This document shows, piece by piece, positions 12,001-18,000 of a stretch of 64,000 nt of DNA. How positions within the stretch are numbered: position 1 is the stretch's first letter; each line of letters starts with the position of its first letter. The DNA comes from Fibrobacteria bacterium (GTDB taxonomy: Bacteria > Fibrobacterota > Chitinivibrionia > Chitinivibrionales > FEN-1185). Location: the NCBI GenBank assembly GCA_037447435.1, contig JBBIGR010000003.1, positions 1-64,000 on the forward strand. Direction: 5' to 3'. Position numbers: made by a program.

Positions 12001-15000
12001 AAAATAAGTATGCCGACCAAGCGGTTGTCAATTACAGTCACGGGCCGCGTACAAGGAGTAGGATACCGGTATTTTGTCCAGGATACCGCAAATTCCGCCG
12101 GTATATTCGGGTGGGTGAGAAATAATCCCGACAGAACCGTTGAATGCGAAGTACAGGGTGAAGACGAAGTTTTGCAGGAATTTCTTGAACGCCTGAGAAC
12201 AGGTCCCGTACTTTCCAGAGTAAAAAACGTTTTCGTTTTCGAAATGCCCGTGGACCACGCTCAAGCACATTACTTCGAAATCACCGGATAATTTTATTTG
12301 TGCACCAACCTCTCCATTTCCTCCGCAATGTTTTTTCTATGCCATTTTTCTATCAGTTCCTTTTCCAGCGTTTCAACATAGTCATCGTCCGGATAATGCC
12401 GCTGGTTTTCAGGGAGAGAGTAGGAATCTTCCAGGCGTCTCCGTTCGCTTGGTAACTCTTTCAGGGTGATCATCATAATGTCCCCCTTTGTTAAGCGTTA
12501 AACCTGCGAAACTTACACCTCATTGATGTTTTGTTTCTATTCTATGGTATTACGTTTAATAAGGAAAAATGTTGGAAAAACAGTTGGTTTTTCTCTTAAA
12601 AAAAATATGTTCAGCGGCCTAAATTATTTTATCTTTTAACTTTGCCCCAGTAGCTCAGTTGGATAGAGCACCGGTTTCCTAAACCGGTTGTCATTGGTTC
12701 AATTCCGATCTGGGGTATTTTTAAAAAGCCCCGAATTCCTGCTTTACATTACAGGATTTGGGGCTTTTTGAACAATCTGGGCTAAATGTTTATATAAAAA
12801 TGAAAAGAATGAAAAAAATAGAACAACATTTTGGTGGAAAATGCGTATATTGAGGTAATGTGATTTCTACAAGAAAATTATTAAATTTTTAAAAACAATT
12901 CAACAAAAATATTGCCTTTTTTATAAAAGTGTTTAAATTTCCTAACGTTTTATTTTCCATGATGTTACTGGTTTGCTATTTCAATATAAATTGTTGATAT
13001 AAATCTAAATATTAGAAAACTTAGTGACTTTTTAGGCTTTTGGGGATATAATATTAAAAAAACAAGTCATATCGCCAAATAAGGCCTGAGGAGAAACCCA
13101 TGAAGGTATCAGCCTTCGGATACACCGATTACCGTAAATTCCTCATTGATAAGTTTGAAGCTAAAAAAAATGAGGATTCCAGCTTCAATTATTTTTATAT
13201 CTGTAAAGAAACGGATATAAAATCTCCGGGACATTTATCGCTCATCCTTCATGGAAAAGTAAACGTCTCCGATGAAATGGCGCAAAAGTTCGCGCAACTC
13301 TGCAATTTGAAAACCCGGGAAACCAAGTATTTTCTTACCCTCGTTCAATTTAATCAAGAAAAGAAAAATGCCCGAAAAAAGGAATTGTTCGATGAAATAA
13401 TTTCCTTTCGTGAGTCATGCATTTACCGGGTTGGTCCGCACCTTTACAAATTCTATGATCGATGGTACCATTCGGTTATACGTGCAATTGTCGATTTTGT
13501 CGATATAACCGACAATTACGACGATTTGGCCAAGATGGTAGTGCCGATAATTCGGCCCGACCAGGCCAAGACTTCATGTGCATTACTTGAAACATTGGAG
13601 CTGATTAAGCGAAACGATCAAGGATTTTGGCGGCCAACGCAAAAAAGCCTCGATTCGGGAAGTGCGGTAACCTCCATTACTATCAATAATTTTGTTTTGT
13701 CAATGATCGACCTGGCGAGAGAGGCCATGGATCGTTTCCCGAGAGAAGAAAGGATTTTTTCGAGCGTGACCCTCGGCGTGAACGAAGAAGGATACGAAGA
13801 AATCGTGACCGAATTGCGGGAATTCCGTCGGAAAGCCGCGGAAATAGCGCAAAAGCATCCTGCTGAAAAAGTCGTACAGGTAAATTTTCAGGTGTTTCCG
13901 GTCAGCCGGGTAAAAGGGGCTCGAGGCGAAGATGCGTAAATTATCCTCAATTTTTATATGTCTGGCAATTTGCACGATGTCATTGTACGTGAGCTGCACC
14001 TCTTTAGCCGGAACGTCCTCTGGCACCGAAGCAAAAATGGCCGGAGTTATTGTCGATGATAAAGGTGCTCCCGCCCCACATTCAATTGTAAGATTAGTGC
14101 TCGATTCGTTTGATCCGGTCAACGGCATACAAAACGATACATTGCTCGATACAACCGACGAACAAGGCGCTTATTCCATACCCGATGTTGATGCGGGTAC
14201 GTATAATGTCGAAATTGTAAATCCGACAACCGGTGCAAACGGCTTGGTAAGAAACGTTGTCGTCGATAAAAAGGATGTTATGCTTCCGCAGGCCGTAATT
14301 ACAAAACCGGGCACGGTCCGGGTATCTATTCTTACTGCAGTGGATACGGCTAACGGATACTTCTTTATTAAAGGTACAAATATTGCCAAGCGGATTCATG
14401 ATCCCAATGTTGTCTTTATCGATTCGGTACCTGCAGGAACAATGCCCGCATTGTTTTACACGCTTCGGAAAAGTGAATCCGATCCTATAAGTGTTTGTCC
14501 AAGCTTTGAGGTAAAATCTCAGGATACGGCGCTTATTTTATTCGGCGGCTGGACTTTTACCCGTAAAATCACTTTAAACACATCCGCAACCGGAGCCGAT
14601 GTTGTCGAAAATTTTACAAAATTTCCGGTACTTGTCAGATTAAACAGTACGAATTTCGATTTCAGTCAGGCCTCAAAGAACGGCGCGGATATCCTATTTA
14701 CCGGAAAAAATGACAGGCGTCTTCCTTTTGAAATCGAACGTTGGGACAGTGCTGCCGGGCTTGCTGAGATTTGGGTGAATGTCGACACGGTTTTCGGCAA
14801 TAATGCAACCCAGTTTATCAATATGTTTTGGGGAAACCCTCGGGCAGTATCGGCATCGAACAGCGAAACGGTTTTCGATACGGCCAATAATTATTTGGCA
14901 GTATGGCATTTCAATCAAGCCGCAACAGATACGGTAAAAGATGCGACTGCGGACCATTATTCGGGAATTCCTCATGCCGTCTCGGCTGCATCCGAAAGTC

Positions 15001-18000
15001 AATCGCTCATCGGCCAGGCAAAAAGGTTCGACGGTGTTTCAAGTTATATCGCTATGCCCGGTACTGCCAATAGCAGATTGAATTTGCCGGAAAAAGGAAT
15101 TTATTCGATTTCCGCGTGGGTAAATATGGACACCTTGGATGGACAAATGCATATTCTGGCTTCCAAGGGAAATAACCAATTCAACCTTCAGGTGATGTAT
15201 AGTTACAATACGTGGGAATTCGCGGAATGCATGGCCGCAGGCGGCTATACTATGGTTAGTTCCCCGGCCTCAACGCATGTATGGGCTCTTGTTATGGGCG
15301 TGCGGAATGGGGATAAACAATACATTTATGTAAACGGCATTTGTACCGATAGTACCATTACCACTGGAAATCCTACGTTTATCCGCTCTACCGGGGATGA
15401 TTTTACTATAGGGAAAAGAACGGATGCGTTGGATTCTTATTTCAAAGGGCAAATGGATGAAGTCAGAGTATCGAATTGCGCGTATGCGCCGGGATATGCG
15501 AAGCTTTGCTATATGAATCAAAAAAAACCGGATGCTTTGGTTCAATTTAAATAATATTAATTGCTTTAATTCACCTCAAAAATTCTGCACGAAAATAACC
15601 AAAAGAGTCCCGTTGGTTTCACTTCCTATTATTTTTAATTTAAAATTATTTTAAAATTATAAATTAATATTAACATATTAAATATTAATATGTTACAGTT
15701 AATTACTGCGGTAAAAAAATATAAATATTGTAAAATATTTTAAAAAAATATGCACTTTTTTTATGTTTTCCGTATATTTTTAAGATTAAGATTTTTGATA
15801 CCATAAGGGGTCACAGTAATCTTAATTGGTGCCAAGAAACGTATTGCAACAAGAAAAATAAATTCGAATTTATAGTGAATTGAAAACGCTTCATTTTATG
15901 AGGGGACAAAAAATGCAGTATTTCTTTTCGTTTACACCCGATACTAGTTTGGGGTTTTGGAAAGCCTATGATGTTGAAATAAGCCCATGGTCCAAAAAGG
16001 GAAGAGCCGATCTGACTGTTATTCAATCCAAAAGGCTGGAAGGCAAGTCGATCTTCATGATAGACGGGTATCTTTGCGACCATTCCATGAGCTATACGGG
16101 CGAAAGCAACAATGGAAATCTTAGCTTAATTAATCGGTCATAATTTTGGACATTCCCGTATTTAAATCCGCTCATTTTTCATGTGGTTCCGCTTTAGCTC
16201 GGTCTTTCTTGCAATTAAAGTGACAAAGCCTGTATTTTATAGCCACTATTACGATCCATCAGTACTTAAAAGGGGGCATTATGATTCGAAAGTTGTTACT
16301 TGTTTCTTTACTCGCATTTATAACCTTTTCCGCAAATGCCGCAGTGACCGGGCGTGTCGTTGACGAGAAAGGACAGCCTGTTTTTGATGCGATGATAAAC
16401 TATTCCAATATCGCAAACCGTCTCATGTATGTCTATACGAATGCAAACGGCGAATTCTCAATTCCCGCGCCAACCGAATGGTCGCTGAACGATTTGCCGA
16501 TGTATAAAATGCAAAATGCAACAGGGACCGTCGGCGGGAATTCATTTGTCAACAACAGAACCAACGCCGGGACAATGATTTGGCAAAAAGGCAACATTGT
16601 CTATTTCTCAATTAAAAACAATGCTCAGCGCATCGTTGCCGACCTTTTTGACTGCGAAGGGAAAAAGGTGGCGCAACTAGTCAATAAAGAATTTAATAAG
16701 GGCGTCGTTTCGATAAACGCAATGGCGCATCCCCTCTTTCGGGCGCATCAGGTTTATTTTGTGAGAATTAACAACGGCAAAGATATTGTATCGTTCAAAA
16801 TGTGCTCTGCCGGGGCGACTCTGATTTCCTCTCTTGTAAAACCGGACGTGGTCTCCGTCGAACAGGACCGGTCTCTTGCAAAACAGGCCGCAATCGATGG
16901 TTTGCGTGCGGGTAAAACAGGGTATCAGCCGGCAACCGTGCAGTTGACTACGTATTCGGACAAAGTTGGCGACCTTAAAATTACGAGCATCAATATCGAT
17001 TCGATAGCCGGCGCCATTCTTGCATCAATGAGTTTAGACCAGAAACTCGGTCAGCTCTGTCAATGTTCCGATGCCTCGTATTTCACGTCAAATTTTGCAG
17101 GGTCTTTTTTGAAAGGCTCATCCCGTTCTGCGATGCAAACAATGCAGAACACGGCGATGTCGACCGGAGCGAAAGTGCCCCTGACCATTGGGTCCGACTT
17201 TTTGCATGGCGGCAATCCCGTCTATTTGCCGCATAATATCGGCATCGGCGCTTCGGGCAACCCCTTACTCTGCGAAATGGCGTTCCGTATGACCGCCATG
17301 TATTGCAAAATCGGAAACAACGTCGATTTCTCGCCGACATTGGATGTTCCCCGCAACGACAAATACGGTCGCGTTTACGAAGGGTTTTCAGAAAATGTCG
17401 ACGACACGAAAATCATGGCGCGCGCCGCGGTTCGCGGATTGCAGGGTACGGATTTGTCTTCCGATTATACGATGATCGCGACTATCAAGCATTACGCAGG
17501 TGCGGGCGGCACAGCCGGCGGCGACATGATGGGTACGACGAATACCGGCGACTGGGCAACACTTTGTAAAATTCACCTTCCGCAATTTCATGCCGCGGTG
17601 GATGCCGGAGCCGCGTCGGTCATGACTGCGTACAATAATTTTATAACATCGCCTACCAGCACCACGCCGCTCAGCATGACGGCGCATAAAATCCTGATTA
17701 CCGATACTTTGAAAAACGGTTGGAAATTCGACGGCTTTACGATATCCGATTGGATGCAGGTTTATGTGCCCGGCACACTCGACCGAATCGCTTCGGGATT
17801 TAATGCCGGGCTCGATGTTTCGATGCAACCGTCCAATACGGCCGAATTTTTTTCCGCTCTTAAGACTCTTGTCAATAATAATACGATCCTCATAGACCGG
17901 GTGAACGATGCGGTAAAGCGCCATTTGCGCGTGAAATTGCGTATGAATCTTTTTGCCAATCCGCTCAGCCGCTCGGATTTGGCCTCGGTAACCAATACCG

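What a model noticed while it worked through the whole genome (the two positions that open the first line are those of the whole stretch)
13100..15600. DUF4423/TIGR02147 is a double-HTH regulator paired with motif-bearing lipoproteins
26 DUF4423 (TIGR02147, 'Fibrobacter paralogous family') loci are each followed, same strand, by a gene for a secreted protein; 24 of 26 are lipoproteins with the same stretch right after the lipobox Cys ([VIL]-A-G-G-x-[ST]-E-T-x-N-G) and then a transthyretin-like domain and variable lectin/LRR/Kelch ends, and the DUF4423 model is two DNA-binding domains. I read the pair as a phylum-specific regulator-plus-surface-lipoprotein cassette in which the shared post-Cys stretch is a sorting or processing signal for cell-surface display. 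New would be a function for a family found in 95% of Fibrobacterota and a new lipoprotein sorting motif.
Evidence so far: Gene order table, 27 Pfam rows of which two are halves of one gene; N-termini, motif judged by eye; strict motif scan of the proteome: 14 hits, 11 directly downstream of DUF4423 and 2 more within 3 genes; AlphaFold model of g00442 with 20 paralogs, pLDDT 89; VIA-align: residues 10-92 to HigA/Xre HTH Z 8.5-9.0, residues 110-190 to MecI/CzrA/MarR winged helix Z 8.3-8.4; DUF4423 in 280 of 295 Fibrobacterota and 1% of Bacteria; next to Laminin_G_3 in 56 of 80 genomes of the order. One paper in the library mentions DUF4423, none TIGR02147.
(Added by a program. Inside this text positions count along the whole contig: contig position 1 is position 1 of the stretch shown here. 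"Call 12" and the like, gene names such as g00115 and contig names such as C1 are that model's own, and its searches are not shown. The text may have been shortened before it was handed on; [...] marks where a part breaks off. The agent that wrote the report below was given it as the finding of a first reader that could run no searches.)

Follow-up and report, generated by a model that had tools for sequence, protein, structure and literature searches.

The report
HetR-like regulators read partner peptide tags
A large unstudied family of bacterial DNA-binding proteins is encoded next to exported proteins that carry a short peptide tag; tag and regulator change in step residue by residue, and the regulator's predicted end domain matches the peptide-binding hood of cyanobacterial HetR, so the tag is likely a private feedback signal for its regulator rather than a cell-surface address label.

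Summary
The gene pair is real: TIGR02147 (13100-13939) overlaps a lipoprotein gene (13932-15554). A lipoprotein follows 24 of 27 loci in this genome and 259 of 280 sampled Fibrobacterota loci. The motif as written matches no ORF, but a looser 9-residue tag exists and is confined to these cassettes.

The sorting-signal reading is not supported. Tag positions covary one by one with regulator residues, including a charge swap (R243 with E/D; E243 with K/K/H). This survives tree contrasts, and it picks the true partner first for 94 of 192 held-out pairs (chance 8). Two other phyla have the cassette, some with only 50-110-residue secreted tag carriers. A 19-bp palindrome covarying with the HTH often sits at activator distance.

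Best reading: a HetR/PatX-like autoactivator controlled by its partner's peptide. Binding, peptide release and the sign of control are untested. The partner code did not transfer across phyla, and this locus lacks a clear operator. The scan reached similar readings before on other genomes and gave me the HetR lead.

The parts
13100..13939 (+). TIGR02147/DUF4423 regulator, 279 aa, three domains
13121..13375 (+). Xre/HigA-type helix-turn-helix domain (aa 8-92); family residues 31, 43, 44, 48, 54 covary with operator bases
13427..13666 (+). winged-helix domain (aa 110-189), in the position of HetR's flap; family residues 118, 119, 125, 129, 179, 183 covary with tag positions -1 to -3
13670..13903 (+). 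hood-like domain (aa 191-268); predicted peptide-binding site; family residues 199, 218-222, 243, 247, 260 (and 190) covary with the tag
13932..15554 (+). partner lipoprotein, 540 aa, start overlapping the regulator's end by 8 nt
13932..13997 (+). signal peptide and lipobox-type Cys22 (called by my own hydrophobicity rule, no SignalP)
14010..14036 (+). peptide tag GTSSGTEAK (aa 27-35, tag positions -4 to +4); an atypical member with Gly at the usually acidic position; three orthologous loci read GTSSGVETK
14040..14219 (+). transthyretin-like CarboxypepD_reg domain (E 1e-4, below cut-off)
14679..14879 (+). DUF2341
15039..15482 (+). Laminin_G_3 (ConA-like lectin fold)
13024..13052 (+). sigma70-like promoter match GTGACT-17-TATAAT (10 of 12; consensus match only)
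12980..12998 (.). weak candidate operator (score 6.3, below my threshold, not kept in orthologues); not established
12643..12718 (+). tRNA-Arg(CCT), 382 nt upstream; context only

Best explanation
The TIGR02147 protein is a three-domain DNA-binding protein whose predicted C-terminal domain has the fold of the HetR hood and likely binds the 9-residue tag of the exported protein encoded right behind it, each pair having its own matched code. SHOWN by sequence: tight gene coupling; the tag is confined to these cassettes; position-by-position covariation of tag and regulator; a palindrome upstream of a subset of loci whose bases covary with the HTH. PREDICTED: hood fold; the dimer (by analogy with HetR). 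INFERRED: (1) the dimer binds a 19-bp operator centred about 62 or 72 nt upstream of the transcription start and activates its own two-gene operon; (2) the partner is exported, and proteolysis of its membrane tether (or of a cargo-free mini-precursor) frees the tag, which re-enters the cell, possibly through an Opp-type transporter; (3) the peptide adds as an antiparallel strand to hood strand 218-226, its acidic residue pairs with R243, its N-terminal half touches the winged helix, and the regulator lets go of DNA, as HetR does with PatS/PatX. Each cassette would then be a self-activating, self-limiting switch that reports on the amount, turnover or shedding of one envelope protein. My odds: direct tag binding 0.85; release after export 0.6; inhibitory sign 0.6.
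For: (1) Covariation on 184 representatives (<50% identity) of 327 tagged pairs, partners permuted within genome sets: tag0-R243 z 8.9, tag-2-A247 16.4, tag-1-Y119/S125/F118 11-14, tag+1-V199/S222 12-16, tag+2-V190/I219 12-14, tag+3-R218/F220 8.5-9.3, tag-3-P179 10.9; null maximum 4.4; residues beside the Cys <=3.5; tag+5 at most 5.0. The tag register was set from the tags alone. (2) Chemistry fits: R243 with E/D in 127 of 137, E243 with K,K,H, T243 with R,R,D; L247 with Gly in 79 of 84, V/I/A247 mostly with S/T/V. (3) Independent contrasts on a tree built without these columns are diagonal: 243/0 10.5 same vs 0.3 opposite of 15 pairs; 247/-2 14.6:0.1 of 26; 119/-1 13.9:1.2 of 25; 220/+3 6.0:0.3 of 24; 222/+1 6.8:0.8 of 11; mismatched combinations are mostly balanced. 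(4) Leave-one-genome-out, training sequences <50% identical to the test set: true partner first in 94 of 192, top 3 in 138 (chance 8 and 24); HTH-only control 29 and 67; window pair 2nd of 20; the displaced C62 partner, two genes away, 1st of 21 for its regulator. (5) Hood: 4ynl_B (HetR hood + ERGSGR) Z 8.0, rmsd 2.2 A, 76 of 76 residues; 4hri_B 7.2; next 4.3; also Foldseek's top row, at E 7.6. HetR's PatS contacts E253, E254, D256, D270, D278, R223 (PMC4649674, passages) map by range end-points to about 222, 223, 225, 239-241, 247-249, 192, overlapping the covarying set, with charges reversed. (6) Cargo-free secreted tag carriers of 50, 67, 82, 82, 110, 110 aa and lipopeptides of 77, 79, 121 aa resemble PatX, a 56-aa Sec-exported precursor (PMC12756182, abstract and passages). 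Tags are tandemly repeated in 3 of 373 partners. (7) Operator: 63 of 285 upstream regions score >=9.5 vs 4.9% of shuffles and 8.3% of 1062 AT-rich G000 controls; bases covary with residues 31, 43, 44, 48, 54 (z 5.5-11.9, 44 sites); centre 50-52 nt (10 of 44) or 60-62 nt (5 of 44) before a -10 hexamer; extra own half-site in 17 of 44 vs 11 of 433 foreign. (8) G000 has two SBP_bac_5 genes.
Against: No binding, cleavage, import or expression data. The Fibrobacterota-trained partner code did not transfer to the other two phyla (mean relative rank 0.47 of 19 pairs and 0.37 of 20; chance 0.5); those sets were drawn across genomes and many tags are near-identical, but the result is negative. In the subset from other orders plus other phyla (50 representatives) most couplings were near the noise level (z 3.7-6.7 vs null max 4.3). 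The HTH-only control also beats chance (29 of 192), so part of the signal is kinship. Full-length HetR is only a weak match (4j00, Foldseek E 0.3, prob 0.16) and no sequence profile finds it. Z 8.0 is within the range the tool calls common, though it stands well above the next unrelated row. In 16 of 327 partners the acidic residue is within 6 residues of the lipidated Cys (95), which is awkward for release after export. Most loci (222 of 285) have no strong palindrome; only 2 of 22 G000 loci reach 9.5; the window's locus has none. Operator bases also covary with some non-HTH columns (V199 z 4.8). The window's tag has Gly where R243 predicts E/D. 46 of 373 pairs with weak tags were left out of the covariation.
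Confidence: 0.55

Rival explanations
1. Export monitor: the regulator binds the same tag in the same cleft, but on the nascent or unexported precursor in the cytoplasm, so that a backlog in Sec export or lipid modification switches the operon. No free peptide is needed.
For: All covariation and fold evidence fits equally. Translational coupling (257 of 373 pairs overlap, 97 lie within 30 nt) puts both proteins together. Tags within 3-6 residues of the Cys in 16 of 327. No protease or transporter gene was seen travelling with the G000 cassettes I listed.
Against: Cargo-free secreted carriers and tandem tags are easier to explain as peptide precursors. Coupling stops at +4 (65), as for a defined peptide end. 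In the closest precedent, PatX needs export to act (PMC12756182, passages).
Confidence: 0.27
2. Private chaperone or pilot: the TIGR02147 protein holds its partner's tag to escort it to export, and DNA binding is secondary.
For: 1:1 pairing, coupling and tag specificity.
Against: A conserved Xre HTH with a covarying operator at activator distance; 50-82-aa partners need no chaperone.
Confidence: 0.07
3. One reading: the tag is a general sorting or processing signal for surface display, read by shared export machinery, like the Bacteroidetes LES.
For: It lies in the tether after the lipobox Cys, where LES lies (PMC5080379, abstract); the [VIL]-A-G element at variable spacing could be a protease site (95).
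Against: Absent from 266 other strict lipoproteins at score >=12; varies with the neighbouring cytoplasmic protein; distance from Cys 3-29 (61) whereas LES is position-critical; present in non-lipoproteins without cargo.
Confidence: 0.05
4. The tag is a linker or first strand carried along by cassette duplication, and the covariation is shared ancestry.
For: 20 of 24 G000 partners share the following domain; the HTH-only control beats chance; the code did not transfer across phyla.
Against: The tag persists before unrelated domains, Ser-rich linkers and stop codons. Couplings are position-specific, chemically complementary and survive tree contrasts, and they fall on the HetR peptide cleft.
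Confidence: 0.06

Closest known systems
HetR with PatS / PatX / HetN (filamentous cyanobacteria; PDB 4ynl, 4hri, 4j00)
   Same: Three domains of like size and order (HetR 1-98, 99-216, 217-299 per PMC4649674; here about 1-105, 106-190, 191-270); hood fold; covarying residues at the peptide cleft; short Gly-containing peptide; palindromic operator; exported precursor as in PatX.
   Different: N-terminal domain matches Xre/HigA and the middle domain a winged helix; full-length match weak; charges reversed (acidic tag, basic cleft); peptide about 9 residues, not 5-6; 2 to over 40 paralogous pairs per genome with private codes; precursor gene coupled directly behind the regulator; peptide usually inside a large lipoprotein; no heterocysts.
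TIGR02147 / Pfam PF14394 DUF4423
   Same: Full member (E 7e-72, 242 bits vs cut-off 50).
   Different: No function assigned; PF14394 covers only aa 116-268.
Kfla_6221 (PDB 4g6q)
   Same: Winged helix plus C-terminal domain aligns to aa 108-268 (Z 7.8, 150 residues, rmsd 5.2).
   Different: No N-terminal Xre domain; function unknown.
Rap-Phr, AimR-AimP, PrgX-cCF10 (RRNPP peptide systems; recalled, no call)
   Same: Regulator gene followed by an exported peptide precursor; export, processing, re-import.
   Different: They bind peptides with TPR domains; no TPR match here.
Bacteroidetes lipoprotein export signal (LES), K-(D/E)2 or Q-A-(D/E)2
   Same: Short, often acidic stretch after the lipobox Cys.
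   Different: LES is shared by many surface lipoproteins and position-critical; this tag is cassette-private and variably spaced.

Membership tests
TIGR02147 / DUF4423 | HMM score over curated cut-off | tested here: met
HetR family | C-terminal hood fold | tested here: met
   predicted model of aa 188-279 vs 48,161 chains: 4ynl_B Z 8.0, 76 of 76, rmsd 2.2
HetR family | HetR-type DNA-binding and flap domains | tested here: inconclusive
   Xre and winged-helix proteins fill the lists; 4j00 only at Foldseek E 0.3
HetR family | Sequence match to HetR or its Pfam models | tested here: not met
   no HetR row at E<=10 in PDB sequence searches; none among the 25 families shown in each Pfam member scan
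HetR family | Acidic cleft binding an RG(S/T)GR peptide | tested here: not met
   cleft residues are R218, R243, T/G/S222; tag consensus G-G-G-[ST]-[ED]-[TV]-[GT]-N-[GAP] (61, 65)
HetR family | Peptide binding releases DNA | not testable with these tools
   needs EMSA / ITC
HetR family | Entwined homodimer | not tested
   monomer models show unpaired extended strands in this domain (30, 89), as expected for a dimer-formed sheet
PatX-like precursor | N-terminal export signal plus short motif in a small protein | tested here: met
   L438-L441, L443, L454 (102); signals judged by eye and by hydrophobicity, not SignalP; not met for the window's 540-aa lipoprotein
PatX-like precursor | Processing by an extracytoplasmic peptidase | not testable with these tools
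   PatP's family was not named in the passages read
Bacteroidetes LES | Shared by many surface lipoproteins of the genome | tested here: not met
   0 of 266 other strict lipoproteins at score >=12 (119)
Bacteroidetes LES | Fixed position near the Cys | tested here: not met
   acidic residue 3-29 from Cys, mode 10-13 (61)
Bacteroidetes LES | Sufficient for surface exposure | not testable with these tools
   needs reporter assay
RRNPP peptide receptors | TPR peptide-binding domain | tested here: not met
   models show HTH, winged helix and hood; no TPR family in Pfam scans

The most novel reading that the evidence does not exclude
TIGR02147 is a very large non-cyanobacterial branch of hood-domain peptide receptors (15,699 clusters at 50% identity with E<=1e-10). 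One cell runs dozens of orthogonal activator-inhibitor switches, each with its own operator and its own peptide cut from the tether of an envelope lipoprotein, so that shedding or turnover of that protein, or peptide from neighbours, resets its expression. HetR-PatX would be one offshoot of this wider class, and the pairs would form a natural library of orthogonal peptide-controlled transcription factors with a readable code.
Probability: 0.4. Interest if true: 0.92.

Novelty: new variant of a known kind. Interest (0 to 1): 0.8.

Why it matters
It gives a testable function to a family present in most Fibrobacterota (rumen, termite-gut and sediment polysaccharide degraders) and in other phyla, with no functional paper in the library searched. 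It extends the HetR hood, described as a novel fold of a cyanobacterial regulator, to a large family elsewhere, which bears on where heterocyst patterning came from. A signal peptide embedded in a lipoprotein tether would be a new way to couple envelope state to transcription. The residue-level code allows cheap decisive tests with synthetic 9-mers and may supply orthogonal switches for synthetic biology.

Tried and rejected
Complex prediction (L014 regulator x2 with its 30-residue tag region x2): no answer, median ipSAE 0.28 against a mark of 0.32, controls not folded; counted neither way. RNA runs: no RNA holder listed. DNA-level motif in the tag codons: third positions vary freely by eye, rejected. 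tRNA-targeted island: only 3 of 28 copies lie within 3 kb of a tRNA. No match in plasmids or viral contigs. PDB sequence searches gave only weak HTH hits and nothing useful for the C-terminal domain; HetR was not in the top 50 for the full-length model. Palindrome EM drifted to an AT-rich motif and was replaced by a symmetry score. No conserved operator across the window and three orthologues. Bdellovibrionota loci were not reached, so their partner genes are untested. One search had an off-by-one numbering error and is superseded; one search crashed at its last step and was redone; one search was repeated compactly as 85. My first lipoprotein call (634 ORFs) over-calls; the strict set (285) drops 5 of the 24 true partners and the C62 partner. 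Atlas search of the C-terminal domain gave only leads under 0.9, among them DUF6502 at 0.78. Considered from recall and dropped: RsgI/FecR-type autocleavage (the tag lies in unrelated contexts and ends open frames), TonB box, sortase motif.
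Full report
1. The locus. ORF 13100-13939 (279 aa) is TIGR02147 (E 7e-72) and PF14394. ORF 13932-15554 (540 aa) overlaps it by 8 nt, has a signal peptide ending in Cys22, and carries weak CarboxypepD_reg, DUF2341 and Laminin_G_3. 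The flanks are AT-rich (27% and 32% GC), with a tRNA-Arg 382 nt upstream and a sigma70-like match at 13024-13052 (14, 90, 114, 125).

2. Counts in this genome. There are 28 family matches at 27 loci (C28 split, C53:12861 truncated). 24 are followed by a lipoprotein-like ORF (17, my own rule). The exceptions are the truncated copy, C33 (a metallophosphoesterase follows) and C62, where a secreted repeat protein sits between the regulator and a tagged lipoprotein. The motif as written matches nothing. A two-block profile trained on 107 partners from other genomes puts 18 adjacent lipoproteins and the C62 protein in the top 20 of 634 lipoprotein-like ORFs; the window's protein is 27th and C52's is 50th. 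In a strict set of 285, score >=12 holds for 15 of 19 adjacent and 0 of 266 others. The tag is real, looser than stated, and cassette-bound.

3. Range. The family is in 20 of 21 relatives and 56 of 61 phylum genomes. I fetched the best-scoring loci, at most 30 per call (30 of 34 in G041, 30 of 41 in G008, 30 of 43 in G016, 30 of 36 in G009). Of 280 full-length loci with at least 300 nt downstream, 259 are followed by a lipoprotein, 252 within 30 nt; several misses are tagged partners my filter skipped. A further set gave 104 of 108. Outside Fibrobacterota: 18 of 61 genomes in the phylum of G070, where 23 of 28 loci have a lipoprotein next, and 27 of 31 in the phylum of G069, where 21 of 22 loci have a secreted ORF next, 19 of them tagged. 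The tool names neither phylum; the record titles read Deltaproteobacteria and Myxococcales, and I infer separate phyla from non-overlapping handle lists. The Atlas lists Bdellovibrionota as commonest in its two top clusters. The tag persists before unrelated domains and Ser-rich linkers. Its consensus over 327 of 373 unique pairs is G-G-G-[ST]-[ED]-[TV]-[GT]-N-[GAP], 3-29 residues from the Cys (61).

4. Cargo-free partners. In one clade of the G070 phylum, six loci in six genomes have a partner of 50-110 aa with a hydrophobic N-terminus, no lipobox, and the tag near the end (L438-L441, L443, L454 of 20 regions fetched; 4 of the 20 were chosen because one search had shown such peptides). These genomes are related, so the six are not independent. 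The G069 phylum has lipopeptides of 77, 79 and 121 aa. Three partners repeat the tag in tandem.

5. Tag and regulator change in step. Using 184 representatives under 50% identity, with partners permuted within genome sets, each tag position couples to its own few regulator columns at z 8-16 against a null maximum of 4.4. Residues beside the Cys reach 3.5 at most. The pairs make chemical sense: R243 with E/D (127 of 137), E243 with K, K, H; L247 with Gly (79 of 84); Y119 with Ser (72 of 101), F119 with Thr/Ile/Val (53 of 67); T222 with Thr (69 of 78); W190 with Thr (24 of 26). On a FastTree built without these columns, independent contrasts are diagonal: 10.5:0.3, 14.6:0.1 and 13.9:1.2 for the three strongest, median sign-test p 0.002, 0.0001 and 0.001 (85). 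Leaving out one genome set at a time and all training sequences over 50% identical to it, 18 couplings from the C-terminal half rank the true partner first in 94 of 192 cases (chance 8); the N-terminal half gives 29. The window pair ranks 2nd of 20, and the displaced C62 tag 1st of 21 for its regulator, which has Q243 facing tag Gln (92). One set pools G061 with two loci of G010. Against this: the code trained on Fibrobacterota did not predict partners in the two other phyla (0.47 and 0.37 mean relative rank), and the smaller outside subset gave z near noise for most positions.

6. Structure. The full model (pLDDT 90.9) gives Xre/HigA HTH at 8-92, winged helix at 110-189, and 4g6q over 108-268; HetR appears only at Foldseek E 0.3. 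Among 48,161 chains the top two hits are the HetR hood with PatS (Z 8.0, rmsd 2.2, 76 of 76) and HetR-DNA (7.2); the next are 4.3 and 4.0 (96). PatS adds as an antiparallel strand to beta3 and contacts E253, E254, D256, D270 and D278, with R223 near its C-terminus, and binding releases DNA (PMC4649674, passages). By range end-points only, these map near 222-225, 239-249 and 192 here. That is where the couplings fall, in the same orientation (tag N-terminal side at 226, C-terminal side at 190 and 218) and with charges reversed.

7. Operator. A 19-bp palindrome, (T/C)G-n5-(A/T)5-n5-C(A/G), scores >=9.5 in 63 of 285 dereplicated upstream regions, against 4.9% of shuffles and 8.3% of 1062 AT-rich G000 controls; widths 17, 18, 20 and 21 do worse. 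In 44 strict sites, half-site bases covary with HTH residues 31, 43, 44, 48 and 54 (85). The centre lies 50-52 nt or 60-62 nt before a -10 hexamer in 15 of 44 (116), about -62 and -72; these are class I activator positions as for CRP (recalled). 17 of 44 have a second own half-site (foreign rate 11 of 433). Only 2 of 22 G000 loci reach 9.5, and the window's locus has no convincing site, also against three orthologues at 60-62% identity whose tags read GTSSGVETK.

8. Mechanism. Two separate codes sit in one protein: HTH to operator, C-terminal half to tag. The regulator is cytoplasmic and the tag lies beyond a signal peptide, so either the tag returns as a peptide or it is read before export. 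PatX is exported and cut by the peptidase PatP, and its signal-less form is inactive (PMC12756182, abstract, section 14 and passages). G000 has two Opp-type binding proteins. Cargo-free carriers favour the peptide route. Tags hard against the lipidated Cys (16 of 327) and the tight gene coupling favour pre-export reading. I put these at about 0.55 and 0.27 overall. The inhibitory sign rests on analogy with HetR and on activator geometry.

9. Literature. DUF4423: one paper, a table row for Bd3700 in Bdellovibrio (passage). TIGR02147: none. Fibrobacter + lipoprotein + paralogous family: none. HetR + DUF6502: none. HetR + 'homologs outside cyanobacteria': none. Listings showed nothing on this family (titles and abstract starts only). 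PMC7476756: passages. PMC5080379: abstract. PMC12669612: one irrelevant passage. No supplements were read. The library lacks most subscription papers, so absence from print is not shown. Within this scan, 38 findings in at least 23 other genomes mention the cassette, two with this reading; they are leads, not support.

10. Verdict. Observation partly confirmed, sorting interpretation not supported. It is a member of TIGR02147. It is not filed under HetR, because the sequence and cleft-charge tests were not met, but it probably works like HetR with PatX. New variant of a known kind; interest 0.8.

Noticed in passing
G000:C28:60951-62062 (L032, L035): A TIGR02147 copy is frameshifted at a short tandem duplication; its tagged partner gene is intact.
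   Followed up: partly
G000:C62:14580-19574 (L011, L481, L482): A 723-aa BNR/sortilin-repeat protein with a Por_Secre_tail-like end lies between a regulator and its tagged lipoprotein; the code still pairs the two.
   Followed up: yes
G000:C33:33168 and C52:2405 (L023, L009): Full-length regulators with no tagged partner found nearby; possibly orphans or served in trans.
   Followed up: partly
window 16281-18689: GH3 glycosidase with an N-terminal CarboxypepD_reg-like domain, 726 nt after the cassette behind an AT-rich gap; no link shown.
   Followed up: no
window 7832-11774 and 19691-22522: Housekeeping genes flank the cassette (by sequence recall: murI, yebC, ruvC, ruvA, ruvB; uppS, cdsA, dxr), plus a rhomboid-like gene at 18734-19486; labels not checked by a call.
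   Followed up: no
L439, L440, L441, L454 (G085, G121, G091, G127): The regulator plus mini-peptide pair is followed by a conserved pair of genes, a 351-357-aa secreted protein and a very large lipoprotein; possible regulon.
   Followed up: no
L445 (G097:C4): Two consecutive lipoproteins with near-identical N-termini and the same tag behind one regulator.
   Followed up: no
L132 (G061:C19): Partner is a 48-aa ORF with a tag and no Cys; either a mini-precursor or a decayed gene.
   Followed up: no
G000:C78:1-681 and C4:106876-109755: Two unrelated lipoproteins share a different post-Cys stretch (TNIA-x-PF-x-DP-x-NA) and have no TIGR02147 neighbour.
   Followed up: no
G041:C9:1284686-1295885 and C6:131172-147490; G147:C16: Tandem arrays of four or more cassettes.
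   Followed up: no
G123:C28:4673-6085: A 574-aa frame with two weak TIGR02147-like stretches, possibly a fused or distant form.
   Followed up: no
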